64,000 nt of DNA, taken from Bacteroidales bacterium (GTDB lineage: Bacteria > Bacteroidota > Bacteroidia > Bacteroidales > Marinilabiliaceae). Both the position numbers and the translations under genes were made by a program. Numbering within the stretch: the first letter of the stretch is position 1; each line of letters begins with the position of its first letter. A model generated the notes under the pieces. The model saw only the letters and a program-made list of their open reading frames with translations, had not been told where the DNA came from and searched no databases. The DNA is taken from contig JAGCYH010000029.1 of NCBI GenBank assembly GCA_017960905.1, forward strand, positions 10,948-74,947, read 5' to 3'. Below are positions 1 through 30,808 of this stretch, one piece after another.

Positions 1-148
1 TTTGCGTTATTAATTGTGATATCGGTGTCAATTTTTAGAGTTTCTTTTTATTTTTGCAACGCAAAAAATAAAAAGGAAACATCGAAACCGAAGTTTTCGT
101 ATTTATGAATTGGAATTTGAAAAATAACAACCTTAAATTATAATTAAA

Positions 149-1924: not shown

Positions 1925-4102
1925 TTAATATCCTAAAGTGTAACGCGACCAAGTGGAGTCGGAATTGAAGAACTTGTCGGCGTAAGAGCGCTCTTTAACG
2001 TATATCCGTTTGAGCTTCTTGCAGCCTTGGAAAACCCATATGCCAATGTCCGACACGCTGCCCGGAATGGTTATTTCGGTAATCGGTGTCTGGTAGAAAG
2101 CTGACGCAGCTATTGTCTTAAGTCCTTCGTGCAGAGTGACTTTTGTGAGGTCGGCGCATTTCGAGAATGCGCCGAAACCTATCGTTTGCACCGAACTCGG
2201 AATGTCAACTTCGGTAATGCTGCTACCGGCAAAGGCGTCCTCATCGATTTTGGTTACCGACGACGGAATGACAACTCTCTTTATCAGATTGTTGTCGCTG
2301 AAAGCCATCTTTGAAATGACTGTCGTGCCGCTCTTGATGAAGTATGTGCCGTCTTGTATGCGTTCGACGGCGGGGTTGGTGTGTATGTCGACGCCCGATG
2401 ATATGGCGTTGGTAACGACCGATATAGTGCCGTACGAGTCGGAGCCGCCGTCGGTGCGGAACTCACCGATGAGCTCTAAGTAGCGCGCGTCATTTGGTAT
2501 CGAAGTGGTAACGGAGAACGACTTGTAGGTGGCGCTTGCAGTAACCTCCGCCACTAATCCTTCGAGGCGGCGGCCGTTGCTCATGAAGTACATGTCGCGG
2601 GCGCAAAGTCTTGCGCCGCCAGTGTGCGTGAAGGTGACGCAAATCTGGTCGACGGTCGTTTTAGAGCTTTTAAGCAGCGGCGAGAAGTCGAACCCGCCCT
2701 CTTTCCACGAGGTGGAGAAATCGCCAGCGCCCCATTGGGTCGGTATTTCCGATGCGGATTGAGCAACGGGCTTTGTTGTGCTTGTGGTTGAAGTTGTTGC
2801 AGTTGAGGTTGTCGCTGGCTTTGCCGGCGACGAAGTTGTCGCGTATGTCGTATTGTTAGTGTTGCGGGTTGGGGCCAGCGACGACATGAAGGTTATGTTA
2901 CCATTGGAGTCGGTGCCGCCGTCGGTGCGGAACTCACCCTTCAGAATAAGGCTTTTAGTGCCTTTGGGCACGTTGCAGTTGATGGTGAAAGAGCGAGGGC
3001 TGCCGCCCGCGCTCACTTCGGCGGCCGAGGTGTAAATCTGTTGTCCGTCGGCCTCAATGGTGATATCGCGGGCACACAACTTGTGGCGTCCGCTGGTATA
3101 TGTGAAGGTCATTGTAGCCACTTCGGTGTAACCAGTCAGTTTCTCTGAGAAGTCGTATTCGCGTGTTGTCCATGTAGTGGAAAACTCGTTGGAAACCCAT
3201 TTTGATGGTGCCGGCGCAGCGGCCTTAGGCTGCTGCTGCACGCGTCCTTCGCCGACAATGGCAAGCCTGCTGTCGGACATAAAAACGGAATGAGCTTTCG
3301 AATTCTTTGTAACCCAAATGGTTGTGAGTTTGTTGCAGTCGTAGAAAATATCGTTGCTCAGTTCGGTTACACTTTTTGGAATAGTGATTTCGGTCATTAC
3401 GGCACTTTTGAAGGCCTTGCTGCCAATGCGGTCAAGTCCCTCGTGCAAAGTTATTTTTGAGAGCGAATAGCAATTTTCGAAAGCCGACTCATCAATTGTT
3501 TTTACCGAAGCCGGAATGTCGGCTTCGGACAGGTTGGCGCAGTTGAAAAACGCTTGTGCGCCAATAGTGCGAACCGACTGCGGCATCACTATTTTTTTGA
3601 GAGCCGAGGTGCGGTAGTACTCTTTCGCTTTGATTTCGGTAGTGCCGTCTTTGATATGTAAGATGCCGTCTTTGAGGCGTTCGTCGGCTGCTTTAGGCGC
3701 AGCGCTGACGGCAAGAGTTATCTTGCCGATGGAATTGGTGCCGCCGTCGGTGCGGGCTTGGGCTTTCATCTTAATGGTTTTCGGCTTTGCCGAAAGCGTG
3801 AATGTATATACGGCGCTCTTGGGGTTGTAACCTGCCGATTGCTCCGTGGCGTCAGTAAGTACGGTTTTTCCGTCGGCGGTTATCTGTACGTCTTTGAGGC
3901 ATAGCTTTTTCCCGCCGCTTTTGTAAGTGAAGCTGATCGTGTTGGTGCCGGCTACGAATTTATTGGCGTCGAAGCTCCATGTGCGTTCTTTCCATTCGGT
4001 AGTGAACTCGCCTTTCTTCCATGTGCCGATTTGGGTGTTTTGTGCTGTCAGTGATTTCGCTGACAGTATAAGTGCAATTGTTATAAGCAAATGTTTTTTC
4101 AT
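1925..4102 (-). CDS. BspA-type leucine-rich-repeat surface protein with three paralogous ~110-aa modules
   Basis: The ATG at 4102 gives signal peptide MKKHLLITIALILSAKSLTAQ; the track start at 4159 adds 19 unlikely residues. Two blocks of ~23-aa LRRs (IP.SV..I...AF..C..L) alternate with three modules ending TDGG(T/S)(N/D)S.G.I. A Ser/Thr-rich linker is present. Confidence 0.8.
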   Translation of the reverse strand: MKKHLLITIALILSAKSLTAQNTQIGTWKKGEFTTEWKERTWSFDANKFVAGTNTISFTYKSGGKKLCLKDVQITADGKTVLTDATEQSAGYNPKSAVYTFTLSAKPKTIKMKAQARTDGGTNSIGKITLAVSAAPKAADERLKDGILHIKDGTTEIKAKEYYRTSALKKIVMPQSVRTIGAQAFFNCANLSEADIPASVKTIDESAFENCYSLSKITLHEGLDRIGSKAFKSAVMTEITIPKSVTELSNDIFYDCNKLTTIWVTKNSKAHSVFMSDSRLAIVGEGRVQQQPKAAAPAPSKWVSNEFSTTWTTREYDFSEKLTGYTEVATMTFTYTSGRHKLCARDITIEADGQQIYTSAAEVSAGGSPRSFTINCNVPKGTKSLILKGEFRTDGGTDSNGNITFMSSLAPTRNTNNTTYATTSSPAKPATTSTATTSTTSTTKPVAQSASEIPTQWGAGDFSTSWKEGGFDFSPLLKSSKTTVDQICVTFTHTGGARLCARDMYFMSNGRRLEGLVAEVTASATYKSFSVTTSIPNDARYLELIGEFRTDGGSDSYGTISVVTNAISSGVDIHTNPAVERIQDGTYFIKSGTTVISKMAFSDNNLIKRVVIPSSVTKIDEDAFAGSSITEVDIPSSVQTIGFGAFSKCADLTKVTLHEGLKTIAASAFYQTPITEITIPGSVSDIGIWVFQGCKKLKRIYVKERSYADKFFNSDSTWSRYTLGY

Positions 4103-4271
4103 ACAAAACTGTTTTTTGATGTAAATAACAAAGTTATTGAACGTTTTTGAGTTATGCAAATGGTGTGCCAGTTTTTCTTCCGAGTGTTTCGTGGTTTTCG
4201 GAATTCTTTTTTTCGCGAATAATCATTATTTTTGACGCGATAAAAGAGTACAAACCAAAACCAAAATACAC

Positions 4272-5765
4272 ATGAACAAAGTACTTCCCATTTTTCTGTT
4301 CTTCCTTTTCGCTACGCAGGCTATGGCGAAAGATTTTGATTTTTCCGTCCAAAGCAACGGGCAAACGCTTTATTACAAAAAAACAAGCGATAAAGAAGTC
4401 TCTGTAGTATATCCAAACAAGTCAGGAGATGACTATTATAGCGGTTATACTAAGCCATCAGGCGATTTGACTATTCCACAAACTGTCACTGACGACGGTG
4501 TAAAATATACGGTTACAAGCATTGGCAAATATGCGTTCGAAGGTTGCAGTGGCCTGTCATCCGTCACTATCCCCGAGTCGGTTACAAGCATTGGCGAAAG
4601 TGCGTTCGAAGGTTGCATTGGCCTGAAATCAGTCACTATCCCCAATTCGGTTACAAGCATTAGTGTAGGTGCGTTCTGTTCTTGTAGCAGTCTGGCGTCA
4701 ATCATCATAGGCAATTCTGTTACAAGCATTGGTCGACAAGCGTTCGAAGGTTGCAGCGGTCTGACATCAGTCTCCATCCCAAAGTCTGTTACAAGCATTG
4801 GTGGCTTTGCGTTCAACCTTTGCAGTGGTCTGGAATCAGTCACCATCTCCAATTCTGTTACATCCATTGACAGAGATGCGTTCCGTAGTTGCCGTGGCCT
4901 GACAAAAGCCGAATTTGCCAGTATTGAGAGTCTGTGCAGTATAAATTTTGGTGGTCAATTTGCAAATCCGTTAAAATACGCTCATCGTCTCTACATAATA
5001 GGAGATGATAATGAAGTTAAAGCTTTGGTAATTCCCGAATCGGTTACTAGCATTAGCTGTGCGTTCTCTGGTTGCAGTGGCCTGACATCTGTCACCATCC
5101 CAAATACGGTTACAAGCATTGACGAATATGCGTTCTGTGAATGCACTGGCCTGACATCAGTCACCATACCTAATTCGGTTACAAGCATTGGCGAAGGTGC
5201 GTTCCGTGGTTGCAGCGGCCTGGCATCAGTCACCATCCCCAATTCGGTTAAAAGCATTGACGAAGATGCGTTCTATGATTGTAGCAATGCCACCTTGTAT
5301 TGCGAAGTTGAAGAAACTTCAAAACCTGGCGGTTGGAATTCTAAGTGGAACGATAGCGGCAGGCCGGAAAAATGGGGATGCAAGGTGATAAGAGCTGCGG
5401 TAAACGATGAAGAATACGGTACAGTGGCTACCGCTGGCGAGAACTATGCCGTAAGGGGCGACGATGGCTCGCTGTGGTATCTGAAAGAGACCACAAATGG
5501 CACAGCCACACTCACTGCCACGCCCAAAGATGGCTATCACTTTGTGAAGTGGCAAGAAGAGCCCGACGCGGCTGCTACACTTAACATAGACGAGGTTACT
5601 GAAAGCAAAACATACACTGCAGTTTTCGCCAAAGACGAACCGACATCGATAAAGAACAACAGCGCTGGTAATGTCCGCAAAGTTACCAAGGTGCTCGGTC
5701 CCGACGGCCTCTACATCATCAAAGATGGGGTGAAATACAATATGCTCGGCGAGAAAGTAAATTGA
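4272..5765 (+). CDS. BspA-type leucine-rich-repeat protein with C-terminal beta-sandwich-like region and short conserved tail
   Basis: Signal peptide MNKVLPIFLFFLFATQAMA. About 10 LRR units (IPNSVTSIGE.AFEGCSGLTSVT) of 23 aa. C-terminal GYHFVKW-type repeat region and a YIIKDGVKY tail. Confidence 0.8.
   Translation: MNKVLPIFLFFLFATQAMAKDFDFSVQSNGQTLYYKKTSDKEVSVVYPNKSGDDYYSGYTKPSGDLTIPQTVTDDGVKYTVTSIGKYAFEGCSGLSSVTIPESVTSIGESAFEGCIGLKSVTIPNSVTSISVGAFCSCSSLASIIIGNSVTSIGRQAFEGCSGLTSVSIPKSVTSIGGFAFNLCSGLESVTISNSVTSIDRDAFRSCRGLTKAEFASIESLCSINFGGQFANPLKYAHRLYIIGDDNEVKALVIPESVTSISCAFSGCSGLTSVTIPNTVTSIDEYAFCECTGLTSVTIPNSVTSIGEGAFRGCSGLASVTIPNSVKSIDEDAFYDCSNATLYCEVEETSKPGGWNSKWNDSGRPEKWGCKVIRAAVNDEEYGTVATAGENYAVRGDDGSLWYLKETTNGTATLTATPKDGYHFVKWQEEPDAAATLNIDEVTESKTYTAVFAKDEPTSIKNNSAGNVRKVTKVLGPDGLYIIKDGVKYNMLGEKVN
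4494..5300 (+). repeat. 69-bp periodic intragenic tandem repeat (23-aa LRR units) with high nucleotide identity
   Basis: A recurring ..TCGGTTACAAGCATTGGCGAA.GTGCGTTC...GGTTGCAG.GGCCTG.CATC.GTCAC.ATCCC.. unit, interrupted at ~4870-5030. The repeat also produces repetitive antisense ORFs (4445..4867, 4991..5257). Confidence 0.85.
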
Positions 5766-15632: not shown

Positions 15633-15890
15633 CGTTACATTCGGTGTTTTCTCTGCAGTAAGGCAGCATGTTTCAGTGTTTTCCGAGTGTTTCGGGGTTA
15701 AAAATACTTTGCGCTTTCAGCGCGGCAACAATGGTAATACATTGTTTCCCAAGGCGTTGCCTTGGGTTCTGGATTTTTGCCCTTTCAGGGCGTTGTTCAT
15801 TTTTCATTGTTAATTGTTAATCGTTCATTCTCAATTAGTTTCATTTGTCCGACGCCGCAAGGCGTCATTTGTTCTGTTTTGTTTTATTCG

Positions 15891-16080
15891 GTGATAATTT
15901 TATCGTGTTTTTCGTGTTTTCCGTGGTTATTTTCGTAATTGGCTACGCCGAACTTCGTTTCGTAATTCGTAATTCGTAATTTTCTCCGTGTCCTCTGTTT
16001 TCTCCGCGTTCTCTGTGATATATTTTTATCGTTTCTTCCGTGGTTAAAATTCGTATTTCGTAATTCAAAATTCGTAATTA
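15891..16080 (+). repeat. composite short-repeat region: duplicated ~50-bp unit, (TTCGTAA)3 microsatellite, 17-18-bp doublet
   Basis: GTGATAATTTTATCGTG..TTCCGTGGTTA..TTCGTAATT (15891-15950) recurs as GTGATATATTTTTATCGT..TTCCGTGGTTA..TTCGTAATT (16016-16079). TTCGTAA x3 lies at 15959..15981. TTCTCCGTGTCCTCTGT/TTCTCCGCGTTCTCTGT lies at ~15982..16016. Confidence 0.8.
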
Positions 16081-18599: not shown

Positions 18600-19325
18600 A
18601 TGAAAAGAATAGCAATAACTGTAGTTGCCTTATTTGTAGTGTTTTGCGTAAACGCGCAAAACATACAGTTGCATTATGATTTTGGCCACTGCATCTACGA
18701 TGAGCTCGACGGCAGTCGGGCGCCTCTCACTTCTACTGTTGAGTTTTTCAAACCCGACAAGGTGGGTAGCACCTTCTTTTTTGTCGATATGGACTACGAC
18801 GACGGCGTGCAGTCGGCTTACTGGGAGATTGCCCGCGAGCTGTGTTTCTGGCACGAGTCGCCGCTCGGCTGGCTCTCGGCGCACGCAGAGTACAACGGCG
18901 GCCTGAGCAGCGGTGTGGGCGCTTTCAACGACGCCTGGCTCTTCGGCCTCACATATTCGGGCCACAACGCCGACTTCTCAGCGACGTGGTCGCTGAGCGC
19001 TATGTATAAGCACATTAGCCACACCGTCGACCTCGATGGCAAAAAACAGTGCAGCAACTATCAGTTCACCGGCGTTTGGAATGTTGACTTTGCTGGTAAA
19101 TGGCTTACATTCAGCGGTTTCGCCGACTTCTGGCGCGAGTGCCGCCCTTGGCAGAACACAACGCATATATTTATGACTGAGCCACAGTTGTGGCTCAATC
19201 TTAACAGAATAGAAATACTTCAAAACGTCAATCTCAGCCTCGGCAGCGAGGTGGAGCTCTCAAACAACTTCGTCGATAAAGGCTTCTATGCCATTCCGAC
19301 AGTGGCACTGAAATTCACTTTGTAA
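18600..19325 (+). CDS. DUF5020 / Tsx-like outer-membrane protein (hypothetical)
   Basis: An ATG 1 nt after the lptB stop gives signal peptide MKRIAITVVALFVVFCVNAQ. The NIQLHYDFG start and aromatic-rich beta pattern fit this family. The track ORF start at 18441 is an in-frame extension that overlaps lptB. Confidence 0.5.
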   Translation: MKRIAITVVALFVVFCVNAQNIQLHYDFGHCIYDELDGSRAPLTSTVEFFKPDKVGSTFFFVDMDYDDGVQSAYWEIARELCFWHESPLGWLSAHAEYNGGLSSGVGAFNDAWLFGLTYSGHNADFSATWSLSAMYKHISHTVDLDGKKQCSNYQFTGVWNVDFAGKWLTFSGFADFWRECRPWQNTTHIFMTEPQLWLNLNRIEILQNVNLSLGSEVELSNNFVDKGFYAIPTVALKFTL

Positions 19326-19395
19326 GTTATAGCGTTTCTGAAGAATATAAAGTGCTGTTTCCCAGTCTTTTCTGTATCTCTCTTGATGATTTTTT

Positions 19396-19530
19396 CACAA
19401 ATCACCGAACAAAACCGCCTCAAATCACCGAACAAATTCTCCTCAAATCACCGAATGAATTCACCTCAAATCACCGAATGAATTCGCCACAAATCACCGA
19501 ATGAATTCGCCACAAATCACCGAAAAATTG
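19396..19530 (+). repeat. 6 x 23-bp exactly phased tandem repeat upstream of DUF4143 ATPase gene
   Basis: The core CAAATCACCGAA starts at 19398, 19421, 19444, 19467, 19490 and 19513, a constant 23-bp step. The last three units are near-identical (CAAATCACCGAATGAATTCGCCA). Confidence 0.95.
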
Positions 19531-19589
19531 TAAAAATCTTTGGTTGACTGATATTTAAATCATATCTTAGCGCCCAAAATAGTAAAGCT

Positions 19590-20864
19590 ATGGCAAAATA
19601 TAAACAACGAATAGCAGATAGGCTTCTTGAGCGTAAGGTTCTCGGGAAGGGTGCAGTTCTTATAGAAGGTCCGAAATGGTGTGGTAAAACTACCACAGCG
19701 AAGCAAATAGCAAAAAGTATCCTTGATTTTGGCAATGCATCTATATTGAAGCAAAGCGCGCAAATGATCGAGATAAGCCCTCGGTCACTTTTAGAAGGCG
19801 CTGCACCTCGTCTTATTGACGAATGGCAGGCGCTGCCTGCCATTTGGGATTCTATACGTAGCGAGGTCGACAAGCGGGGAGAGCCATCACAGTTTATTCT
19901 CACGGGTTCGTCAGTTCTGCCAAATGCCGATGAAACCATACATAGTGGAACAGGACGTTTTGCGTATATCATGATGCGCCCGATGAGCCTGTATGAATCA
20001 GGTGAATCTTCTGGATCCGTTAGTTTAAAAGATTTGTTTGAAGGTAAAACGCCTGATGTACAACAAAATAAGTTAGAAATAGAAGACATAGCCTATCTTG
20101 TTTGTCGGGGTGGATGGCCTTGGGCAACATTAATATCCAAAGACGTAGCGCTTGATCAGGCATTCGACTATGTTGATTCTGTGATTACTCGTGATATACA
20201 GCGTGTTGATAAGGTAAAAAGAAGCCCGGAGCGTGCAAGGCTACTTTTGCGTTCGTATGCCAGGAACATATCCCAACAAGTTTCATACGCAACATTCCGT
20301 AAAGATATGCTCACAAATGATGCAAGTTCGTTAGACGAAGACACTGTTGCCGACTATATTGCAGCATTAAAAAAACTATTTGTAATAGAAGATCTTGCCG
20401 CATGGAATCCCAATTTGCGAAGCAAATCTGCAATAAGAAATAGCGATACTCGGCATTTCGTAGATCCAAGCATCGGAACAGCAGTCTTGGGCCTTGGTCC
20501 TCAAGATCTAATAAATGATTTGGATACATTCGGGTTTTTCTTTGAGGATATGGTGGTGCGCGATCTGCGCGTGTATGCCGATGCCTTAGACGGTCAAATC
20601 TACCATTACAGAGACAGTAATGGCCTTGAGTGCGACACTGTCATCCATCGACGTAATGGCAGTTATGCGCTTCTTGAAGTGAAACTGGGCGGTGAAAAAC
20701 TTATAAATGAAGCCGCTAAATCTATGATTGAACTATCACGTAATATTGATACGGACAAAATGCAGTCACCATCATTCATGGCTGTTATTGTCGGTGTTGG
20801 AAAATACGCTTATAAAAGACCTGATGGGGTATTTGTCATCCCGATAGGCTGTTTGAAAGATTAA
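19590..20864 (+). CDS. AAA+ ATPase with C-terminal DUF4143 / PD-(D/E)xK-like domain (COG1373 type)
   Basis: Walker A GPKWCGKTT, Walker B RLIDEWQ, and C-terminal ECDTVI....ALLEVKLG, a nuclease-fold-like D...E.K motif. Confidence 0.8.
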   Translation: MAKYKQRIADRLLERKVLGKGAVLIEGPKWCGKTTTAKQIAKSILDFGNASILKQSAQMIEISPRSLLEGAAPRLIDEWQALPAIWDSIRSEVDKRGEPSQFILTGSSVLPNADETIHSGTGRFAYIMMRPMSLYESGESSGSVSLKDLFEGKTPDVQQNKLEIEDIAYLVCRGGWPWATLISKDVALDQAFDYVDSVITRDIQRVDKVKRSPERARLLLRSYARNISQQVSYATFRKDMLTNDASSLDEDTVADYIAALKKLFVIEDLAAWNPNLRSKSAIRNSDTRHFVDPSIGTAVLGLGPQDLINDLDTFGFFFEDMVVRDLRVYADALDGQIYHYRDSNGLECDTVIHRRNGSYALLEVKLGGEKLINEAAKSMIELSRNIDTDKMQSPSFMAVIVGVGKYAYKRPDGVFVIPIGCLKD

Positions 20865-21019
20865 TGCCGATTTTGGTTATTGCAATCAAATTATGGCATT
20901 AATTGCCCGTGAGAGTAGTTTTTCGATAAATAAAGCAAACCTATGGAATTCAGTGACAAGGGGAGTGCAGATTGGTGGAACACGATACATTAAGCACACA
21001 GGCGTGCCGTTAGGCACGC

Positions 21020-22462
21020 TCACTCTGTTTTAAGAAGTGTTTTGATTTGCGTTTTTAGAGCGTTCTCCACATCTTCCATTGCCGCTTTGTATTTGTCGTA
21101 ATCACTCGCTGTTTGCTCTACACGAATGCCTATGCCATAAATATTGCCTCCTAAACCACACAATTGTCTTGGTATTGACAATACCGCTTTTTCTTCTTGT
21201 GTTTCATCAAGTTCAATCGGGTATAACAATGCACAATGTTTTGCTGGCAAAACGTGCATATAGGTAATCATTTGGAACAAATCGTCGCGACAAATAGAAA
21301 TATTGTTTTGCGTTTCATCGATTTCGCCACGCACCAAACGCTTATATTTAGCATCAAAAACAAAAGACTTCTCGCCTGTTTCATCGCCTTTAGTTTGTAT
21401 ATAAAAATCAGGGAAATACTTGTGGCTGCCTTTGTATATCTGAATGCCATTTTCGCCCGTTTTATTTTTGGCGTGCGTTATGCCAAGTTTCTTTTTTTCA
21501 AAAATCGTATTCAAATACTCCTCCCAAAGCCAAGCGCCATCGAACAGAATGCCGTAGATTTGGTCTTTCTGGCGGCCGTATTTGAGTTCCTCGTGGCGAA
21601 GGATTTGTAGGCAGAGCCGCTGCAGGTCGGTGTAGGCCGAAAAGTACGGGTGCCGCACGGGCCGAAGGTTCTGGCTGACGATTTTGGCGCGCTCGCGGGC
21701 ATTGTAGGTTGGCGTGGCCATAACAATCTGGCTGACAGCCGTTTTGGTGTCGGCATCGTTGTTCAGAATGGACTGCCCCTGCTCCTTGCCGCGAATGAAC
21801 TCAATGGTGTGGCGGACAAGTTGCGTGAGTTCGTTGTCGTAGGTGTGCTCGCGCGTGGTGTAGGCCACCGTGCCTCGGAACGGAATGTTCTGGCGGATAT
21901 GGCGGCTCACATCAATGGGTCCGCGAATGTTGGCGTCGTTGTGCTCAAAGCGGCGGTACTTCTTGAAAACACCCTGCGCCACCGCTTTCCGCAGAAAATG
22001 GGGAAACAGATAGAACAGGAAATCGAAAATCCGCTCGGCGCTTGTGTCGTGCTTTAAATCGAACAGATTGATTGCGAACACTTTCTGCAACATATAGTGC
22101 AGAAAATAGTCGTTGCCGTCGGTTTGGGCGAAACGCGAGCGAATGTCAATTTGCGTCTGGTTCACGCCCACAAAGCCCATTATGTTGCCCGTGCTGATTT
22201 TGCCGTCGGAAAACGACAGAATCTGGTCATCGCCGATTTCGTCGCCGTGCTGTTTCAAATCGGGCGGAAAGACAAGCAGGTTTGGGTTGTTTTTACGTTG
22301 CGTTTCAATTGTTTTGTTGGCAATAATACCAATAGCATCTTTCACATCCTCCAATTCGGCATCCGTTGCAAAATCACGATTATAGCGGTCGTTGGATTCT
22401 GCATCTAACGAAATAGGCTCGTGGTTGTCCGTTATCCAAATACTACTCATACTTGTCAGCAT
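21020..22462 (-). CDS. mcrC: McrC-like 5-methylcytosine restriction system nuclease subunit
   Basis: Overlaps the upstream McrB-like gene by 8 or 20 nt, depending on the ATG chosen. C-terminal PD-(D/E)xK motif FPDFYI....FVFDAKYK. Confidence 0.75.
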   Translation of the reverse strand: MLTSMSSIWITDNHEPISLDAESNDRYNRDFATDAELEDVKDAIGIIANKTIETQRKNNPNLLVFPPDLKQHGDEIGDDQILSFSDGKISTGNIMGFVGVNQTQIDIRSRFAQTDGNDYFLHYMLQKVFAINLFDLKHDTSAERIFDFLFYLFPHFLRKAVAQGVFKKYRRFEHNDANIRGPIDVSRHIRQNIPFRGTVAYTTREHTYDNELTQLVRHTIEFIRGKEQGQSILNNDADTKTAVSQIVMATPTYNARERAKIVSQNLRPVRHPYFSAYTDLQRLCLQILRHEELKYGRQKDQIYGILFDGAWLWEEYLNTIFEKKKLGITHAKNKTGENGIQIYKGSHKYFPDFYIQTKGDETGEKSFVFDAKYKRLVRGEIDETQNNISICRDDLFQMITYMHVLPAKHCALLYPIELDETQEEKAVLSIPRQLCGLGGNIYGIGIRVEQTASDYDKYKAAMEDVENALKTQIKTLLKTE

Positions 22463-25301
22463 TTGAATATCCGTATGCTATTGCTAACCTTTTGAGTTTC
22501 TTATATATATCTGTTGTTCCTCGCAAATACTCAAACAGTAACCCTTCCAAATGGTATTCCCATAATTCATCAAAATTATAACTACCATCTTCCTTTTTGT
22601 AATTGGTAAGTTTCAAGAAATAACTTGCGCCAATGTGGTATGCCGACGACAAACCTTCGATAGGTTTATCTTCTTCTTTTTCATCATTTTCAAGTTTGTG
22701 CCAAATAACCTTGTTAATGTTCTCTAATTTTTCCCTTGCTATTCCGATTGTTTCATCGTCAGGTTTCAATGAATTTCCATTTTCATCCTTTCCCCACGCT
22801 TCCGCGCTATCAAGCATTGCTTTCGAATCATCGGCAGTGACTTCCTTAAACGCGAACCTGCGGCGGAAGGCAAAATCCATACTCTCAACGCTGCGGTCGA
22901 TATCGTTCATTGTACCAATGATATAAACGTTTTCGGGAACGAAGAAATGACCGCAATTATCAGAATCAGTAATATTTAAAGCATCATCGAACACATTAGG
23001 CGTTTTCTGAAGATTTGCATATTGAGTTCTCAAATCATTGCATTTTTCAAGTCCTCGATATCCAGGGTCAATGGCAAAAAAAAGTTCTCCAAATATTTTA
23101 TTGATTTCTCCACGATTGATTTCATCTATTATGAAAACAAATTTTGCAGTTTTATCTGGCATTTTTTCTATAATCATTTTTCCATATCGTGATTCCACAT
23201 ATGACGCAATAGCTGTTACGTAAGGCTTCCAATCTATTATTTTGCCACTTTCCATATATACTTGAAGCATCTCTTGGGTTATGCTCATTTCTGTTGCCGC
23301 TTCAGTTTGCGGAATTGCAACCAAATTGCCATTCCGATTAACCCTTACATTAAATTTCTTTTTCTGAACAGGCGTCTCAAACTCAATACTACCTCCATTT
23401 TCAATAATTTCATCAACAAATGATTTATAGGCATCATCAAAATTGAATATTTGTTGATTACCATTTTGGCTTTTCAATGCCCGTTCACAAAACTCTTTGA
23501 AAACACCATCTTTGTGTTCAAAACCGACATTGCCGTCTTCGTTTGGCGGTGTTGGCCGCAACCCCTCAACAAAGTCGGTGTAGTCGTACGACGGGTGGAA
23601 TTGGACAAAGCCGATTTCATTGTCTGTGCAACCCATTGCCTGGGCTATCTGCTTTGCCAAATAGGTTTTGCCTGTGCCTGGGGCGCCTGTTAGGATTAGG
23701 TTGTGGTTGGATTTGAGAAGGTTAACGTAAGTGTTCAAATTTGCTTCCATATCAAGTTCGCTTTTTGTTTTAATTTCAATATAAGCCACGGCATTTTGAC
23801 GACCTGCATATTTGCCGTTATAAGTAACAAATTGATTATAATTTAATTGCTTATCCTTATTTATCCATTCAAATTTATCAATTAAGAATACAATTTTGGC
23901 CGCCTTATTATCATCCGCATAATCTGAAAAGCTATCTTCATACCAACACGGCTCGTAGTTATTTTTCCAATCATTTTTTTTGCTATCGTAATCTTTCCTT
24001 GTGGCATAATCAATAATACGAAACCTACAATTTGTTATATTGCTTGAGATATTATAAAGCCAAAAATCATCATTTTGCTTAATCACTTTTTTCAATTCTA
24101 AAATAACTTCATCAAAATCAGAAAGTTGATTTTTCCAAATTATACCATAATTGTGTTCTGCTAAATCTTTCGCAAAATCATCCATCCAATTATTAGAATC
24201 CCTAGCAATCAATCCTTGTATTATAATCTGCTCTTTTTTAATTATTTCAAGTAAATTCGGGAAACTCTCAAAAAGTTCCCAACATACATCTTGCGCAAGC
24301 AAAAGGTTGCTTTGCAAAAGACCGTGAATACTGCTGTTTTCAATTATTTCGTGCAATTCACTATCGTTTTCAATCAAATGAACCAATGGTTCAAGCAATT
24401 GCAAGTAATGCTCGTATTTCTTTCCTGCACTTTCTGTTGCCACGCCCAAATACTGGCATAGTTTTCTATAAAAACCATCTTTGTATATGGTGTAACGCTG
24501 TGGATTACTGCACGTTAGAATAGTTGCCGCCATTCGCTCATCGTTGGCTTTACTATTATAATTAGTATCAGACACCAAATCAGCCATTTGGGTTTTGAAA
24601 GCTGCCAACCTGTCTGTCAACGACAAAGACTCGTCAACCAATTGGGTTAAAACAGTCTCGAATTGCGACAATTTATTGTTAACCAAATATTTCAAGACAT
24701 TGTTGTCTCTAACAACATCATATAAATTACAGAAACCACCTTGTGTGGCATTGTTAGGGTGCTTAATATGATTCTGCACTATTTCAATTGGCTTTTTCCC
24801 CTGCGTTGCTGTAATAAGTTGCCATTTATATATTTCGTACGCGCCTTCAGCATTGAAATCAACTTCTCGGCGGTGCGCTTTATAGGTTTCAAGCATCCGC
24901 CAATAGAGCCAATCTTTCACTGCTTCAGCCAATTCGGGGCGCAATTGCCATTCGAAAGAGCCTTCTTCACCATTTTTCAATGGGCGGCCTATCCCCATTG
25001 GTATTGGCCAATAATTTTTGTTTCCTTCGGTGTTAATACATTCAAAACGATTGAGTTTGTTTTGAACGAACTTCCCAAATTGCATAATCGTAGCATTGAG
25101 CGACGCTGGCTTTTTGCCAAACGGTTTGCCTGCCGAAACGCAACTTCCCTTATGGTCGGGCAAATAGTAAAAGCAAGCCACGGCTTCTTTGTAATTATCG
25201 CTAACTGCCTTGTCTTTAAGAAATCCCAACCATTCGTCTTTGCTAATATCAACATCAGAACGGTAAACATCGCCGTCTTTATACTCTTGTATGGTTTCCA
25301 T
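22443..25301 (-). CDS. mcrB: McrB-like AAA+ GTPase restriction subunit with ~530-aa N-terminal extension
   Basis: Walker A LTGAPGTGKTY, IIDEINRG, and the McrB signature IIGTMNDIDRSVESMDFAFRRRF. The long N-terminal region has no motif I recognise. Confidence 0.85.
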   Translation of the reverse strand: METIQEYKDGDVYRSDVDISKDEWLGFLKDKAVSDNYKEAVACFYYLPDHKGSCVSAGKPFGKKPASLNATIMQFGKFVQNKLNRFECINTEGNKNYWPIPMGIGRPLKNGEEGSFEWQLRPELAEAVKDWLYWRMLETYKAHRREVDFNAEGAYEIYKWQLITATQGKKPIEIVQNHIKHPNNATQGGFCNLYDVVRDNNVLKYLVNNKLSQFETVLTQLVDESLSLTDRLAAFKTQMADLVSDTNYNSKANDERMAATILTCSNPQRYTIYKDGFYRKLCQYLGVATESAGKKYEHYLQLLEPLVHLIENDSELHEIIENSSIHGLLQSNLLLAQDVCWELFESFPNLLEIIKKEQIIIQGLIARDSNNWMDDFAKDLAEHNYGIIWKNQLSDFDEVILELKKVIKQNDDFWLYNISSNITNCRFRIIDYATRKDYDSKKNDWKNNYEPCWYEDSFSDYADDNKAAKIVFLIDKFEWINKDKQLNYNQFVTYNGKYAGRQNAVAYIEIKTKSELDMEANLNTYVNLLKSNHNLILTGAPGTGKTYLAKQIAQAMGCTDNEIGFVQFHPSYDYTDFVEGLRPTPPNEDGNVGFEHKDGVFKEFCERALKSQNGNQQIFNFDDAYKSFVDEIIENGGSIEFETPVQKKKFNVRVNRNGNLVAIPQTEAATEMSITQEMLQVYMESGKIIDWKPYVTAIASYVESRYGKMIIEKMPDKTAKFVFIIDEINRGEINKIFGELFFAIDPGYRGLEKCNDLRTQYANLQKTPNVFDDALNITDSDNCGHFFVPENVYIIGTMNDIDRSVESMDFAFRRRFAFKEVTADDSKAMLDSAEAWGKDENGNSLKPDDETIGIAREKLENINKVIWHKLENDEKEEDKPIEGLSSAYHIGASYFLKLTNYKKEDGSYNFDELWEYHLEGLLFEYLRGTTDIYKKLKRLAIAYGYSNADKYE

Positions 25302-29383: not shown

Positions 29384-29390
29384 ATATTTG
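29383..29390 (+). promoter_or_regulatory. -7 box TAtaTTTG upstream of second DUF4143 ATPase
   Basis: Matches TAnnTTTG, 24 nt before the ATG. It sits between the last 22-bp repeat and the palindrome. Confidence 0.45.
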
Positions 29391-29412
29391 CAGCAATTAT
29401 AATTGCTGCAAA
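29387..29412. promoter_or_regulatory. perfect 26-bp palindrome (candidate operator) ending 1 nt before the ATPase ATG
   Basis: TTTGCAGCAATTA|TAATTGCTGCAAA; I verified the reverse complement by hand. It overlaps the 3' end of the TAtaTTTG -7 box at 29383..29390. Confidence 0.7.
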
Positions 29413-29413
29413 T

Positions 29414-30604
29414 ATGTATAACTATGTTCGAAGTATAAATCAAGATGTGCTCGGTCGTATCAACGAACCTCGGCGTTTTATTCAGGTTATTGCAGGTCCG
29501 CGTCAGGTGGGCAAATCAACTATGGTGCATCAGGTGCTTTCTCAAGTGAAAATACCGTATCTGTCGGAGAATGCCGATGCTGTAGATGCTGCCGATTCTG
29601 ATTGGATTCGCCGTGTCTGGAACACGGCTCGTAATAAGATGCTTGTGCTCAATTTGAGCGAATTTTTGCTCGTTATCGACGAGATACAAAAAATACGTAA
29701 TTGGAGTGAGGTCGTCAAGCGCGAATGGGATGCAGACTCTCTTAATGGTGTGAATATCAAGGTGATATTATTGGGTAGCTCACGCCTTATGTTGCGAAAA
29801 GGTCTTACAGAATCGCTTGCCGGGCGTTTTGAGCTGATACGCATGAGCCATTGGAGCTATCAAGAAATGCGTGATGCCTTCGGCTTCACGCTCGATCAGT
29901 ATATTTATTTCGGCGGTTATCCTGGTGCTGCGCCATTCATTAGTAATGAGAAACGCTGGCGGCGTTACATTAAGGACGCACTCGTCGCGCCAGCTATTGG
30001 TAAGGATGTTATATTAACATCGAATATCTATAAGCCTGCGCTTATGCAGCAGGTTTTTGAAATTGGTTGCTCGTATTCGGCTCAGTTGCTGTCGCTTACG
30101 AAGATTGTTGGGCAGTTGCAGGATGTTGGCAACGCCACCACTGTTGCGCATTATATTTCGCTACTCAATCAAAGCGAATTGCTTACGGGTTTGCAGAAAT
30201 ACGTCTTCGATGAGGCTCGCAAGTACAACTCTGTGCCGAAGTTCCAAGTGTACAATAATGCCTTGCTGACTGCTTACCGAGGGAAAAATTACGAAACTGA
30301 CCGCACTAATCCTGATGTTTGGGGCAGGTGGGTTGAGTCGGCTGTTGGCGCACATCTTGTGTGCCGTGCCAACGAGCTCGACTACAGAGTGTTATATTGG
30401 CGCGAACGTAACGATGAGGTCGATTTCATAGTTTATGGTCAGGGCAAATGCATATCTATTGAGGTAAAAAGTGGCCGTCACGCAAAAAATAAAGGTATGA
30501 AGTTATTTCATGATTTATATCAGCCGCAGATGGAATTTATTGTAGGCACAACTGGAATGCCGGTCGAAGAGTTTTTGTTAACTGATTTGGAACACTTTTT
30601 CTGA
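29414..30604 (+). CDS. AAA+ ATPase with C-terminal DUF4143 / PD-(D/E)xK-like domain (COG1373 type)
   Basis: Walker A GPRQVGKST, Walker B LLVIDEIQKI, and C-terminal EVDFIVYG..CISIEVKSG. Confidence 0.8.
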   Translation: MYNYVRSINQDVLGRINEPRRFIQVIAGPRQVGKSTMVHQVLSQVKIPYLSENADAVDAADSDWIRRVWNTARNKMLVLNLSEFLLVIDEIQKIRNWSEVVKREWDADSLNGVNIKVILLGSSRLMLRKGLTESLAGRFELIRMSHWSYQEMRDAFGFTLDQYIYFGGYPGAAPFISNEKRWRRYIKDALVAPAIGKDVILTSNIYKPALMQQVFEIGCSYSAQLLSLTKIVGQLQDVGNATTVAHYISLLNQSELLTGLQKYVFDEARKYNSVPKFQVYNNALLTAYRGKNYETDRTNPDVWGRWVESAVGAHLVCRANELDYRVLYWRERNDEVDFIVYGQGKCISIEVKSGRHAKNKGMKLFHDLYQPQMEFIVGTTGMPVEEFLLTDLEHFF

Positions 30605-30660: not shown

Positions 30661-30808
30661 TGATAGAAGATTTTGTAACCGAGATTTGAAGATTTTGTAA
30701 AAAATATTTGAACATTTTGTAAGAGAGAATTGAACATTTTGTAAGAGAGATTTGAACATTTTGTAAAAGTCATTTGAGTATTTTGCGAAAACAAATTGAA
30801 CAAAAAAA
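30661..30808 (+). repeat. 7 x 22-bp phased tandem repeat downstream of the same ATPase gene (same word, same orientation)
   Basis: Units start at 30661, 30683, 30705, 30727, 30749, 30771 and 30793, e.g. GATTTGAAGATTTTGT, GAATTGAACATTTTGT, GATTTGAACATTTTGT. The outermost units are degenerate. Confidence 0.9.

What the first reader, a model, noticed from the sequence alone, without database searches (positions are those of the whole stretch)
19326..20864. Paralogous DUF4143 ATPase has its own different 6 x 23-bp phased array, suggesting word/ATPase pairing
Seen: the core CAAATCACCGAA recurs at 19398, 19421, 19444, 19467, 19490 and 19513, a constant 23-bp step. The array ends 66 nt before the ATG of a 424-aa protein. 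That protein has the same architecture as the 29414 gene: Walker A GPKWCGKTT, Walker B RLIDEWQ, and C-terminal ECDTVI...LLEVKLG.

The repeated word is unrelated to the 22-bp word of the other locus, and there is no downstream array here. Two diverged paralogues in one 64-kb window each carry a private, helically phased array in the same relative position. This is hard to attribute to chance microsatellite expansion.

Inference: the arrays and ATPases co-evolve as specific DNA-site/protein pairs, serving autoregulation, self-marking or filament nucleation.
Basis: partly seen in the sequence, partly recalled or inferred. Interest (0 to 1): 0.72.

Follow-up and report, generated by a model that had tools for sequence, protein, structure and literature searches.

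The report
ATPase-nuclease gene with private operator array
A very common but uncharacterised bacterial ATPase-nuclease gene (a candidate anti-phage defence gene) carries, just upstream of its promoter, a row of 23-bp repeats. The variable letters of these repeats change in step with the predicted DNA-reading helix of the protein, so the protein most likely binds its own promoter.

Summary
Six exact CAAATCACCGAA cores at a 23-bp step (19398-19524) end 65 nt before the ATG of a 424-aa AAA_14+DUF4143 protein (PADLOC candidate PDC-S01).

It is not a local microsatellite. In 72 of 77 related loci (55-87% identity, several phyla), 23 bp is the best self-match lag upstream of the gene. The signal is strong in 36/77 upstream segments against 1/1136 control segments. 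The single control hit lies in front of a second paralogue. The array persists down to about 28% identity. The second window paralogue belongs to a subfamily with a 22-bp array (60/72 loci).

Each unit has a constant frame (CAA...AA). It also has about 7 positions that are uniform within an array but differ between arrays, and a loose spacer. Differences at those positions track divergence of the predicted winged-helix domain only, peaking at residues 241-260. Residue 251 pairs with base 11 (Fisher p=0.0013 on 36 independent pairs).

The last unit sits at a fixed distance from the promoter in every phylum. The best reading is a self-recognised operator array that sets the gene's own expression and nucleates the oligomer. 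Binding, the sign of regulation and any defence role are untested. No paper I could search describes this.

The parts
19396..19524 (+). Array of six direct 23-bp units. Each has a 14-bp core C[AT]CAAATCACCGAA and a 9-nt variable spacer. In the sixth unit, promoter-proximal sequence replaces the spacer.
   Evidence: for this window. The array is homologous to arrays upstream of orthologues in other genomic contexts. The unit frame is shared by 75 arrays.
19539..19542 (+). Predicted Bacteroidota -33 element TTTG, starting 14 nt after the last core.
   Evidence: Read from the sequence. The same +14/+15 position is seen in most of the 18 Bacteroidota-type loci whose -7 box lies at +37..39. This is a consensus match only; no transcription start data exist.
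19563..19570 (+). Predicted Bacteroidota -7 element TATCTTAG (consensus TAnnTTTG, one mismatch), 20 nt after the -33 element and 19 nt before the ATG.
   Evidence: Orthologues have TACCTTTG at the aligned position. The +38 spacing class is.
19590..20864 (+). 424-aa AAA_14 + DUF4143 ATPase-nuclease (PADLOC candidate PDC-S01).
   Evidence: Pfam. PADLOC PDLC04790, E=2.1e-63. AlphaFold2 model with pLDDT 92.1 and pTM 0.91. Walker K33 and D77/E78, and nuclease D325, E347, E363 and K365 are invariant in 75 relatives; D349 is in 74 of 75.
19590..20069 (+). AAA+ ATPase domain (about residues 1-160). Walker A GPKWCGKTT lies at 19668-19694 and Walker B RLIDEWQ at residues 74-80.
   Evidence: The closest solved folds are SSO1545 (2fna) and PABY2304 (2qen), then STAND/NLR and Orc1/Cdc6.
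20226..20465 (+). Predicted winged-helix domain (residues 213-292): helices 213-225, 233-241 and 250-262, then a beta wing at 264-290.
   Evidence: Secondary structure of the model. This is the only domain whose divergence tracks word divergence.
20331..20375 (+). Candidate recognition helix (residues 248-262, LDEDTVADYIAALKK). The D251 codon lies at 20340-20342.
   Evidence: Sliding-window covariation peaks at residues 241-260 (rho 0.50). The top single residues are 251, 249, 215, 16, 284, 248, 19 and 250, with 286 tenth; 16 and 19 lie outside the winged helix. Residue 251 against base 11: Fisher p=0.0013 on 36 independent pairs.
20466..20861 (+). PD-(D/E)xK nuclease domain (residues 293-424; D349, E363-V-K365).
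   Evidence: DUF4143 is listed in the PD-(D/E)XK superfamily (PMC3424549).
29235..29384 (+). Upstream array of the second paralogue: 22-bp units, 6.8 copies, core TTGAA[CG]ATTTTG. It runs into the -7 box TATATTTG.
   Evidence: The 22-bp lag is best in 60/72 relatives.
29414..30604 (+). Second AAA_14 + DUF4143 paralogue (396 aa, PDC-S01 model PDLC04791, E=1.1e-177).
30666..30785 (+). Downstream 'orphan' array with the same 22-bp word and orientation, between convergent genes. It is atypical for the subfamily.
   Evidence: Only 1 of 71 relatives has a strong 22-bp-period downstream array.

Best explanation
The array is a row of head-to-tail binding sites for the winged-helix domain of the ATPase-nuclease encoded next to it.

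Each 23-bp unit has three zones:
- a frame shared by the whole subfamily (CAA at columns 3-5, AA at columns 13-14);
- about seven specificity positions (columns 6-12) read by the N-terminus of helix 250-262 and by the wing;
- a loose A-rich spacer.

Protomers bound to the 3-10 units are held at a fixed pitch. That should nucleate the ATP-dependent AAA+ oligomer right against the -35/-33 element of the gene's own promoter, so the protein controls its own synthesis. I lean towards negative feedback, because the core promoters look strong and many arrays overlap them. Array, promoter and gene travel together between genomes and phyla as one self-regulating cassette, and the helix-plus-word specificity diversifies quickly.

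What is shown and what is inferred:
- Shown: the array, its conservation, its geometry and the covariation.
- Inferred: binding, oligomer nucleation, the sign of regulation and any link to defence.
For: 1. The array is real and non-random.
2. It travels with the gene. A homologous array lies upstream of 86%-identical orthologues in two other genomic contexts, and homology ends about 20 nt after the stop codon.
3. Family-wide enrichment. The best lag is 23 in 72/77 upstream regions. The signal is strong in 36/77 against 1/1136 control segments, and that one control lies upstream of another paralogue. Loci with no TRF call still have 1-3 units. The array is still present at 57, 44, 39 and about 28-29% identity in Bacteroides, Collinsella, Prosthecochloris, Lentilactobacillus and Mycobacterium. 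Agrobacterium and Brucella show weak 22-bp periodicity. The second subfamily has a 22-bp array.
4. Constraint pattern. Within-array conservation is 0.8-0.9 in columns 3-14 and 0.65-0.70 in the spacer. Between arrays, columns 6-12 carry only 0.05-0.8 bits.
5. Covariation. Word distance correlates with the winged-helix domain only (rho 0.35, regression z=6.6). AAA is -0.01 and the nuclease -0.01. Spacer distance shows no such domain-specific signal (rho 0.02-0.08). The peak is at residues 241-260. Matching pairs recur in different taxa: LDEDTV with ACCGAA, LDENTV with ACTGAA, xEETV with TCGGAA. Independent sister pairs give p=0.0013. Among close relatives, helix divergence triples with word change while the rest of the protein barely moves. 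In subfamily 2 the top residues, Y271 and N272, align with wing residues 284 and 285 of subfamily 1.
6. Fold. AAA+ followed by a winged helix, as in SSO1545 and Orc1/Cdc6-DNA complexes.
7. Fixed geometry. The -7 box lies at +37..39 (18 loci) or +15..18 (12 loci) after the last core in Bacteroidota-type promoters. In Firmicutes the -35 lies at +6/7 and the -10 at +27/28. In spirochaetes the last unit overlaps the -35.
8. The only gene that always accompanies the array is the ATPase itself.
Against: - There is no experimental binding, footprint or expression data anywhere.
- Promoters are consensus matches only.
- The sign of regulation is undetermined. In one geometry class the sites lie just upstream of an intact -35, which is activator-like. 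In another they overlap the promoter, which is repressor-like or -35-replacing.
- The covariation replicate in subfamily 2 is weak. There the word mostly tracks whole-protein phylogeny (rho 0.39).
- Simple autoregulation does not by itself explain why specificity diversifies so fast between close relatives.
- Orphan arrays without an adjacent ATPase gene exist (window 30666-30785; L007, L009, L049).
- A 23-bp step is not an integral number of helical turns, so a straight same-face filament is not expected.
- Word consensus and register were derived by my own scripts.
Confidence: 0.66

Rival explanations
1. Specificity module of an exclusion or self-marking system. The array is mainly a 'self' platform rather than a transcriptional operator. 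It holds the nuclease-ATPase as an inactive DNA-bound oligomer. The protein then acts on other DNA carrying the same word at the same pitch, such as an incoming copy of the cassette or a replicon with matching iterons. Fast diversification of helix plus word would then resemble plasmid incompatibility.
For: - Helix and word co-diversify rapidly among close relatives.
- Co-resident paralogues have different words.
- ATPase and nuclease catalytic residues are essentially invariant: one N at D349 in 75 relatives.
- The window gene sits next to an McrBC system.
- The family is a defence candidate enriched in such contexts.
- Plasmid and phage origins typically use 22-23-bp iteron pitches (established knowledge).
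Against: - No off-array copies of either word occur in the 64-kb window.
- No array of the commonest word exists in 2.9 million viral contigs.
- The strict spacing to the promoter is not needed under this model.
- No defence phenotype has been published for PDC-S01.
Confidence: 0.14
2. Replication-origin, partition or mobility site. The repeats are iterons or a centromere-like or recombination site of a small mobile element, and the AAA+/winged-helix protein is its initiator or mobilisation factor.
For: - Direct repeats at a 22-23-bp pitch beside the gene of a winged-helix AAA+ protein resemble iteron/Rep and ORB/Orc1 modules. Foldseek hits include Orc1/Cdc6-DNA complexes.
- An identical protein occurs in different genomic contexts, and many contigs of under 2 kb suggest a repeated or mobile unit.
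- In one context the cassette is flanked by direct repeats next to a tRNA-Met gene.
- Relatives occur on 290 plasmids.
Against: - The gene sits between housekeeping genes on long chromosomal contigs.
- Several paralogues occur per genome or window, which is incompatible with a chromosomal origin role.
- There is no Rep-type domain and no recombinase in the cassette.
- All units are direct and abut the promoter at a fixed distance, rather than flanking an unwinding element.
- A 22-bp-period downstream array is seen in only 1 of 71 relatives.
- Only 0.4% of plasmid records carry a relative.
Confidence: 0.07
3. Host-factor site or structural promoter element. The repeats are bound by a host transcription factor, or act as phased A-tract curvature or an UP-element. 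The ATPase would not read them.
For: - The spacers are A-rich and the array lies where UP elements and activator sites lie.
- The promoter type adapts to the host phylum.
Against: - The array with the same frame follows the gene across Bacteroidota, Bacillota, Spirochaetota and Actinomycetota, and by periodicity alone into Chlorobiota. No host factor is shared across these phyla.
- The most constrained letters are the non-A/T core, not the A-tracts.
- Word changes track the ATPase's own winged helix.
Confidence: 0.06
4. Neutral tandem-repeat expansion or a contingency locus. The array arose by slippage, and its only effect, if any, is to change promoter strength through copy-number changes.
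For: - Copy number differs by exactly one unit (6 against 5) between contigs encoding the identical protein.
- Array length ranges from 1 to more than 10 units across relatives.
- L030 has 6.6 perfectly identical units, which suggests recent expansion.
Against: - The period is constant at 23 bp across phyla and down to about 28% protein identity.
- Core and spacer are under different constraint.
- The distance to the promoter is fixed.
- The word covaries with the protein.
- Copy-number variation is compatible with, and probably modulates, a binding-site array.
Confidence: 0.05

Closest known systems
Iteron/Rep modules of plasmids (for example pPS10, R6K, F, RK2), from established knowledge
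   Same: - Direct repeats of about 17-22 bp at a 22-23-bp pitch, beside the gene of the protein that binds them.
- Winged-helix recognition.
- The same sites serve oligomer assembly and autoregulation.
- Specificity diversifies into many private word/protein pairs (incompatibility groups).
   Different: - The protein here is an AAA+ ATPase fused to a PD-(D/E)xK nuclease, not a WH1-WH2 Rep.
- The loci are mostly chromosomal and multi-copy per genome.
- The array abuts the promoter at a fixed distance.
- There is no evidence of replication.
Archaeal Orc1/Cdc6 with origin recognition boxes; DnaA with DnaA-box arrays in the dnaA promoter
   Same: - An AAA+ protein with a DNA-reading domain binds repeated elements near its own gene and oligomerises on them.
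- Orc1/Cdc6-DNA structures are among the closest folds (2qby, 2v1u).
- DnaA autoregulates through such boxes (established knowledge).
   Different: - The match is structural only (TM about 0.25-0.3).
- ORBs are inverted around an unwinding element, whereas these units are all direct.
- There is an extra nuclease domain.
- There are many paralogues with different words.
OmpR/PhoB-type winged-helix regulators on tandem direct repeats; ParR/parC and omega-heptad arrays; C-protein control of restriction-modification genes
   Same: - Head-to-tail sites stacked upstream of, or overlapping, the -35.
- Cooperative occupancy.
- ParR, omega and C-proteins give a mobile gene set host-independent autoregulation, which suits a horizontally transferred nuclease gene.
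   Different: - The regulator is the effector itself, a 424-aa ATPase-nuclease, not a small dedicated DNA-binding protein.
- The unit length is 22-23 bp.
- There is no receiver, ribbon-helix-helix or C-protein domain.
PADLOC candidate defence system PDC-S01 (AAA_14 + DUF4143, COG1373)
   Same: Both window proteins match its models strongly. The family is described as an ATPase fused to a PD-(D/E)xK domain. It is the fourth most common defence (candidate) system across prokaryotes and has not been validated (PMC12988326; PMC13356809).
   Different: None of the papers I could search mentions upstream repeat arrays, sequence-specific DNA binding or a winged-helix specificity code. That part appears to be new.

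Membership tests
AAA_14 + DUF4143 ATPases (COG1373; PADLOC PDC-S01) | N-terminal AAA_14 and C-terminal DUF4143, both above Pfam gathering scores | tested here: met
   AAA_14 scores 55.4 bits (cut-off 27). DUF4143 scores 115.2 bits (cut-off 28.1).
AAA_14 + DUF4143 ATPases (COG1373; PADLOC PDC-S01) | Full-length match to a PDC-S01 profile | tested here: met
   PDLC04790, E=2.1e-63, residues 1-422. The paralogue matches PDLC04791 at E=1.1e-177.
AAA_14 + DUF4143 ATPases (COG1373; PADLOC PDC-S01) | Intact Walker A/B and PD-(D/E)xK catalytic residues | tested here: met
   K33, D77, E78, D325, E347, E363 and K365 are invariant in 75 relatives, and D349 is in 74 of 75. All are present in the window protein.
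AAA_14 + DUF4143 ATPases (COG1373; PADLOC PDC-S01) | Protects against phage or foreign DNA | not testable with these tools
   The papers I read list the family as an unvalidated candidate. The only support here is context: an McrBC system lies next door.
Iteron-type replicon (Rep + iterons) | Direct repeats at about a 22-bp pitch beside the gene of the binding protein | tested here: met
   Six units at 23 bp, conserved family-wide.
Iteron-type replicon (Rep + iterons) | Rep-type (WH1-WH2) initiator protein | tested here: not met
   Only AAA_14 and DUF4143 are found. The fold is AAA+, lid, winged helix and nuclease.
Iteron-type replicon (Rep + iterons) | Resides on an autonomous replicon, one per element | tested here: not met
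   The gene lies between prfB-like, ABC and DUF5020 genes and McrBC on contigs of 41-101 kb. There are two paralogues in one window. Only 290 of 72,556 plasmid records hold a relative.
Iteron-type replicon (Rep + iterons) | Adjacent AT-rich unwinding element and DnaA boxes | not tested
   No dedicated scan was run. The array is followed directly by the promoter.
Orc1/Cdc6-type initiator with ORB elements | AAA+ module followed by a winged-helix DNA-binding domain | tested here: inconclusive
   Foldseek hits 2qby and 2v1u at E=2e-5 to 2e-4, but with TM only 0.24-0.30. There is no sequence-level match.
Orc1/Cdc6-type initiator with ORB elements | Inverted ORB repeats flanking an unwinding element | tested here: not met
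   All units are direct, in one orientation, and abut the promoter.
CRISPR array | Repeats of at least 23 bp separated by unique spacers of similar length, with cas genes nearby | tested here: not met
   The whole period is 23 bp, with 9-nt spacers that are similar to each other. No cas domains were found in the nine window ORFs scanned, including both flanking genes. There is no Rfam match.
Phase-variable simple-sequence contingency locus | Frequent copy-number change between otherwise identical strains | tested here: inconclusive
   One of five contigs with the identical protein has one unit fewer. Of the ten contigs carrying P0056, nine score 4.5-4.7 TRF copies. L013 scores 2.5 by TRF but aligns with five cores.

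The most novel reading that the evidence does not exclude
PDC-S01 proteins may be programmable, sequence-specific AAA+ nucleases. Their specificity module would be one recognition helix plus a private array of matching words, and it would diversify like plasmid incompatibility determinants.

Under this reading:
- The array is the assembly platform and the 'self' reference.
- The system excludes or cuts DNA that presents the same word at the same pitch, such as a competing cassette, or plasmid and phage origins built from 22-23-bp iterons.

A simple residue-to-base code (for example residue 251 with base 11) could then make these proteins re-targetable.
Probability: 0.15. Interest if true: 0.9.

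Novelty: new variant of a known kind. Interest (0 to 1): 0.76.

Why it matters
AAA_14/DUF4143 (PDC-S01) genes are reported as the fourth most common defence (candidate) system across prokaryotes. They are the most frequent single defence locus in rumen genomes (PMC12988326, PMC13356809). Their function is unknown and no cis-element has been described for them.

This work adds four things:
- These proteins carry a conserved array in their own promoter whose word matches the protein. That gives them a first concrete molecular property: sequence-specific DNA binding through a winged helix.
- It supplies a candidate recognition code (residue 251 with base 11, plus wing residues).
- It supplies a ready-made substrate for binding, structural and reporter experiments.
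- It offers an explanation for how a nuclease gene can move between phyla while staying under control.

It also explains a practical nuisance: assemblies break at these cassettes.

If the specificity turns out to serve exclusion rather than only autoregulation, this would be a new logic for a very abundant system.

Tried and rejected
- **Chance or microsatellite.** Rejected by shuffles and by conservation across phyla.
- **RNA element.** No Rfam match on either strand of 19200-21100.
- **Sigma-70 promoter and terminator scan.** No sigma-70-type promoter site upstream of the ATG on the gene's strand; the promoter is of the Bacteroidota -33/-7 type, read by eye and by comparison.
- **Solved-structure sequence search.** Only a Walker-A-level match to Rix7. 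Fold search was needed.
- **First genome-contig query.** An alignment of 27 diverse sequences had no stretch conserved enough. Eight sequences worked.
- **Downstream array as a general feature.** Rejected; a 22-bp-period one is seen in only 1 of 71 relatives.
- **'P0145 and 19 TRF-negative loci lack arrays'.** Rejected on inspection. They hold 1-3 units, and one has an assembly gap at the expected place.
- **Array as a phage-borne target.** No CAAATMACCGAA-N11-CAAATMACCGAA in viral contigs. Relatives are almost absent from phage records.
- **Covariation replicate in subfamily 2.** Only weakly informative, because the words follow whole-protein phylogeny (two of these scripts failed and were rerun).
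- **Linkage as the cause of covariation.** Rejected. The domain nearest the array (AAA+) shows no correlation.
- **Literature.** Searches for DUF4143, COG1373, PDC-S01, AAA_14/PF13173/PF13635, 'guilt-by-embedding' and iteron-like+AAA++anti-phage found no description of the arrays.
Full report
**1. The observation**

The sequence is as described.
- CAAATCACCGAA occurs exactly six times at a constant 23-bp step: 19398, 19421, 19444, 19467, 19490 and 19513.
- Tandem Repeats Finder reports 19398-19524, period 23, 5.5 copies, 92% matches.
- With one mismatch allowed, the only matches in the 64-kb window are these six. Shuffles give 0.55 expected and none of 100 reaches six.
- The last core ends 65 nt before the ATG at 19590.
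- ORF 19590-20864 encodes 424 aa with GPKWCGKTT, RLIDEWQ and ECDTVI...LLEVKLG. It matches Pfam AAA_14 and DUF4143.
- The 29414 gene has the same two domains but about 24% identity over the alignable part. Its 22-bp word TTGAA[CG]ATTTTG is unrelated and confined to its own two arrays.
- In the whole window, TRF finds only three arrays with a 20-25-bp period and more than five copies. All three flank these two genes.

**2. Local anatomy**

In register, the unit is a 14-bp core C[AT]CAAATCACCGAA plus a 9-nt spacer that varies between units. In the sixth unit the spacer is replaced by promoter-proximal sequence. Starting fourteen nucleotides after the last core there is TTTG (19539-19542). Twenty nucleotides further lies TATCTTAG (19563-19570), and 19 nt after that the ATG. 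This is the Bacteroidota -33/-7 promoter layout (TTTG ... TAnnTTTG, from established knowledge), with one mismatch. Orthologues have TACCTTTG at the aligned position. A sigma-70 scan finds no promoter site upstream of the ATG on the gene's strand, and there is no Rfam match.

**3. The protein**

- Both window proteins match the PADLOC candidate system PDC-S01 (E=2.1e-63 and 1.1e-177).
- The gene lies next to McrC and a 952-aa McrB-like ATPase.
- An AlphaFold2 model built with 27 homologues is confident (pLDDT 92.1, pTM 0.91). It shows an AAA+ core (about residues 1-160), a helical lid, a three-helix bundle with a beta wing (residues 213-292, third helix 250-262), and a PD-(D/E)xK domain.
- No solved structure is related by sequence.
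- By fold, the nearest are the archaeal AAA+ proteins SSO1545 (2fna) and PABY2304 (2qen). STAND/NLR ATPases and Orc1/Cdc6-DNA complexes follow.
- Walker K33 and D77/E78, and nuclease D325, E347, E363 and K365 are invariant in 75 relatives; D349 is in 74 of 75.
- The literature I could search treats the family as function-unknown (PMC3424549). [quoted passage not shown]

**4. The array travels with the gene**

- The identical protein is on seven contigs. Of the five read, all have the array, but L002 has one unit fewer, and its intergenic distance is exactly 23 bp shorter.
- An 86%-identical protein (P0056) sits in at least two unrelated genomic contexts. In each it has a homologous array of five units (cores CAAA[TC][CA]ACCGAA) followed by the same promoter. 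Similarity between contexts stops about 20 nt after the stop codon.
- For this protein, 241 of 458 index blocks have contigs under 2 kb. This fits a unit that recurs in different contexts and breaks assemblies.

**5. Family-wide survey**

A scan of one genome per species returned 80 loci with 55-87% identity. They come from Bacteroidales, Lachnospiraceae, Oscillospiraceae, Erysipelotrichaceae, Negativicutes, Treponema, Victivallis, Fibrobacter and others.
- TRF finds a 23-bp array (one of 22 bp) ending 13-123 nt before the start in about 58 of them.
- In a lag scan of the 260 nt upstream, 23 is the best lag (range 8-40) in 72 of 77 loci.
- Self-match of at least 0.6 over 92 nt occurs in 36/77 upstream segments against 1/1136 other 260-nt segments of the same loci.
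- That one control lies in front of a second, 48%-identical paralogue in tandem, with its own different word.
- Control segments are mostly coding, which weakens the control somewhat. The window-level count in section 1 makes the same point.
- TRF-negative loci still contain one to three units, and one has an assembly gap at that spot.
- The 23-bp array persists in plasmid-borne relatives at 57% (B. ovatus), 44% (B. uniformis), 39% (Collinsella), 29% (Prosthecochloris) and 28% (Lentilactobacillus, Mycobacterium). Agrobacterium and Brucella relatives show only weak 22-bp periodicity.
- For the other window paralogue, 80 metagenomic relatives (51-67% identity) show a best lag of 22 in 60/72. The signal is strong in 23/72 upstream segments against 1/481 controls.
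- A strong 22-bp-period downstream array occurs in only 1 of 71 relatives. The window's 30666-30785 array is therefore atypical.
- The most distant members of that subfamily, and a distant paralogue in L008, use the same half-sites as palindromes.

**6. What is constrained**

I aligned 75 subfamily-1 arrays in register.
- Within an array, columns 3-14 are 0.8-0.9 conserved and the spacer 0.65-0.70.
- Between arrays, CAA (columns 3-5) and AA (columns 13-14) are near-universal at 1.4-1.75 bits. Columns 6-12 carry only 0.05-0.8 bits.
- Columns 6-12 are therefore uniform inside each array but differ between arrays. That is the signature of specificity positions.

**7. Covariation with the protein**

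I fixed the domain boundaries from the model beforehand.
- Pairwise differences at columns 6-12 correlate with divergence of the winged-helix domain (Spearman 0.35). They do not correlate with the AAA+ domain (-0.01), the nuclease (-0.01) or the whole protein (0.07). The lid gives 0.15.
- In a joint rank regression the winged-helix coefficient is 0.52, or 6.6 null standard deviations from 300 label permutations. Spacer differences show no such domain-specific signal (rho 0.02-0.08).
- An unbiased 15-residue sliding window peaks at residues 241-260 (rho 0.50). The best single residues are 251, 249, 215, 16, 284, 248, 19 and 250, with 286 tenth. Most lie at the N-terminus of the third helix, the first helix or the wing; residues 16 and 19 lie in the N-terminal AAA+ region.
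- Matching pairs recur in unrelated taxa: LDEDTV with ..ACCGAA, LDENTV with ..ACTGAA, xEETV with ..TCGGAA, ITEDTxY with ..CGCCAAAT, ITYETV with ..TTGCGGAAT, and FDKExL with ..ACTCGGTT.
- I chose 36 phylogenetically independent sister pairs by distance outside the winged helix. A change at residue 251 goes with a change at base 11 (7/3/3/23, Fisher p=0.0013).
- Among pairs no more than 25% diverged elsewhere, divergence of residues 244-257 rises from 0.15 (same word) to 0.445 (4-7 word differences). The rest of the protein moves from 0.15 to 0.20.
- Physical linkage cannot explain this, because the domain closest to the array shows no signal.
- In subfamily 2 the word follows overall phylogeny (rho 0.39), so the test has little power. 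Even so, the top partial-correlation residues, Y271 and N272, align with wing residues 284 and 285 of subfamily 1.

**8. Geometry with the promoter**

The distance from the last core to the promoter is quantised.
- Bacteroidota-type promoters: the -7 box starts at +37..39 in 18 loci, and the -33 TTG sits at +14..17 in most of them. The window's mismatched box falls at +38. In 12 loci the box starts at +15..18, so the last core covers the -33 region. In 5 loci it starts at +60..62.
- Firmicutes: the -35 TTGnnn lies at +6/7 and the -10 at +27/28.
- Spirochaetes: the -10 lies 8-10 nt after the core, the ATG at +19, and a -35-like TCGACA sits inside the last unit.
- The promoter type thus follows the host while the array and its register to the promoter are kept.
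- In the second window paralogue the last core runs straight into the -7 box.

**9. Interpretation**

The only protein that accompanies the array through all these genomes is the ATPase itself, and its predicted DNA-reading surface changes with the word. The best-supported reading is that the array is a set of head-to-tail binding sites for the protein's own winged helix. The array would hold protomers at a 23-bp pitch (about 70 degrees of rotation per unit) against the promoter. This would give host-independent autoregulation of a horizontally mobile nuclease gene and a nucleation platform for the AAA+ oligomer.

I lean towards negative feedback, because the core promoter elements are good and many arrays overlap them. 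The data do not decide the sign. Copy-number changes (6 against 5 units with an identical protein) would tune the circuit.

What autoregulation alone does not explain is the fast co-diversification of helix and word, or why co-resident paralogues carry different words (L039; L089 and L093 from one MAG; the two window genes). Selection against cross-talk, or an exclusion or incompatibility function, are the candidates.

Alternatives fit less well:
- A host factor or DNA curvature.
- A replication, partition or mobility site.
- Neutral slippage.

Each is weighed in the rival explanations.

**10. Comparison and novelty**

Functionally this resembles several known arrangements:
- iteron/Rep modules;
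- Orc1/ORB and DnaA-box arrays;
- ParR/parC and omega-heptad operators;
- OmpR/PhoB tandem sites;
- C-protein control of restriction genes.

It is not a member of any of them. The Rep domain, replicon location and inverted ORB layout were tested and not met. It is a member of the AAA_14/DUF4143 (PDC-S01) family. None of the papers found for that family mentions upstream arrays or sequence-specific binding. The searchable library is limited, so prior description elsewhere cannot be excluded. I rate it a new variant of a known kind of arrangement, in a very abundant family of unknown function.

**11. Limits**

- Everything about binding, regulation and defence is inferred.
- Promoters are consensus matches.
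- Word consensus, register and statistics come from my own scripts on 75 (subfamily 1) and 53 (subfamily 2) loci.
- The Mantel-type permutation does not fully remove phylogenetic structure, which is why the sister-pair test was added.
- Orphan arrays without an adjacent ATPase gene (window 30666-30785; L007, L009, L049) remain unexplained.

Noticed in passing
window 30666-30785: An orphan array of the 22-bp word of the second paralogue. It has the same orientation as the upstream array and lies between the convergent ATPase-2 and M16 peptidase genes, with no gene downstream on that strand. Downstream arrays are rare in the subfamily: a strong 22-bp-period one occurs in only 1 of 71 relatives.
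   Followed up: partly
L007 898-1040; L009 168-401; also L011, L012, L014, L015: 23-bp arrays (5-10 units) of a different word, CCAACGTTAGACAAGGGTGTTAT. tblastn detects no DUF4143 gene next to them. In L007 the array lies between convergent genes, near the ATPase cassette. They could be relics of lost cassettes or trans sites.
   Followed up: partly
L049 1537-1617: A 23-bp array (ATACTTGGCAAG...) lies 100 nt upstream of a 171-aa ORF with a tRNA_SAD domain. It sits directly upstream of the ATPase's own array and gene.
   Followed up: partly
L008 and L010, about 1483-1880 (upstream of the minus-strand gene 226-1482): A distant AAA_14/DUF4143 paralogue has no tandem array. Instead it has three palindromes, TGCCAAyATTGGCA, which are inverted GCCAA half-sites. 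One lies between a TATCTTTG -7 box and the start codon.
   Followed up: partly
L007/L008, about 2750-2775 and 4395-4418; tRNA-Met at L007 4470-4544 (-): In one Prevotella-type context, a roughly 35-bp direct repeat (AGTTTGTTTACGCATTGTTTACG) flanks the array-plus-gene cassette, and a tRNA-Met gene lies just beyond. This may be an integration or recombination signature.
   Followed up: partly
window 29384-29413: The -7 box TATATTTG runs into a perfect 26-bp palindrome, TTTGCAGCAATTATAATTGCTGCAAA, which ends directly at the ATG of the second paralogue. It could be a second operator or a 5' hairpin.
   Followed up: no
L039 784-866 with 926-2182, and 2347-2416 with 2501-3763: Two tandem paralogues (48% and 61% identical to the query) each have their own 23-bp array, with words GCCAACTCTCCAAAC and CACAAACTCCCGAAT. 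Both arrays begin with one or two units of a third word, GCCAAATGGCAAAAT, so they are composite. L083 is also composite.
   Followed up: partly
P0056 contigs; L085 upstream of 2501: More than half of the index blocks for this protein hold contigs under 2 kb. One genome assembly has a run of N exactly where the array is expected. The cassettes and arrays appear to break short-read assemblies.
   Followed up: no
window 21020-25301 (-): McrC (PF10117) and a 952-aa McrB-like AAA_5 protein lie directly downstream of the ATPase gene, convergent with it. This is a defence-island context.
   Followed up: partly
window 4510-5281: 69-bp (and 138-bp) tandem repeats lie inside ORF 4272-5765. They are probably a repeat-domain surface protein.
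   Followed up: no
window 15793-16079: A cluster of short 7-9-bp micro-repeats (TTGTTCA, TTTTTCGTG, TTCGTAA, AATTCGT) spans about 300 bp.
   Followed up: no
L016-L023, about 3700-4900: The region downstream of the P0145 ATPase gene differs in length between strains. Called ORFs of 124-312 aa have no Pfam match.
   Followed up: no
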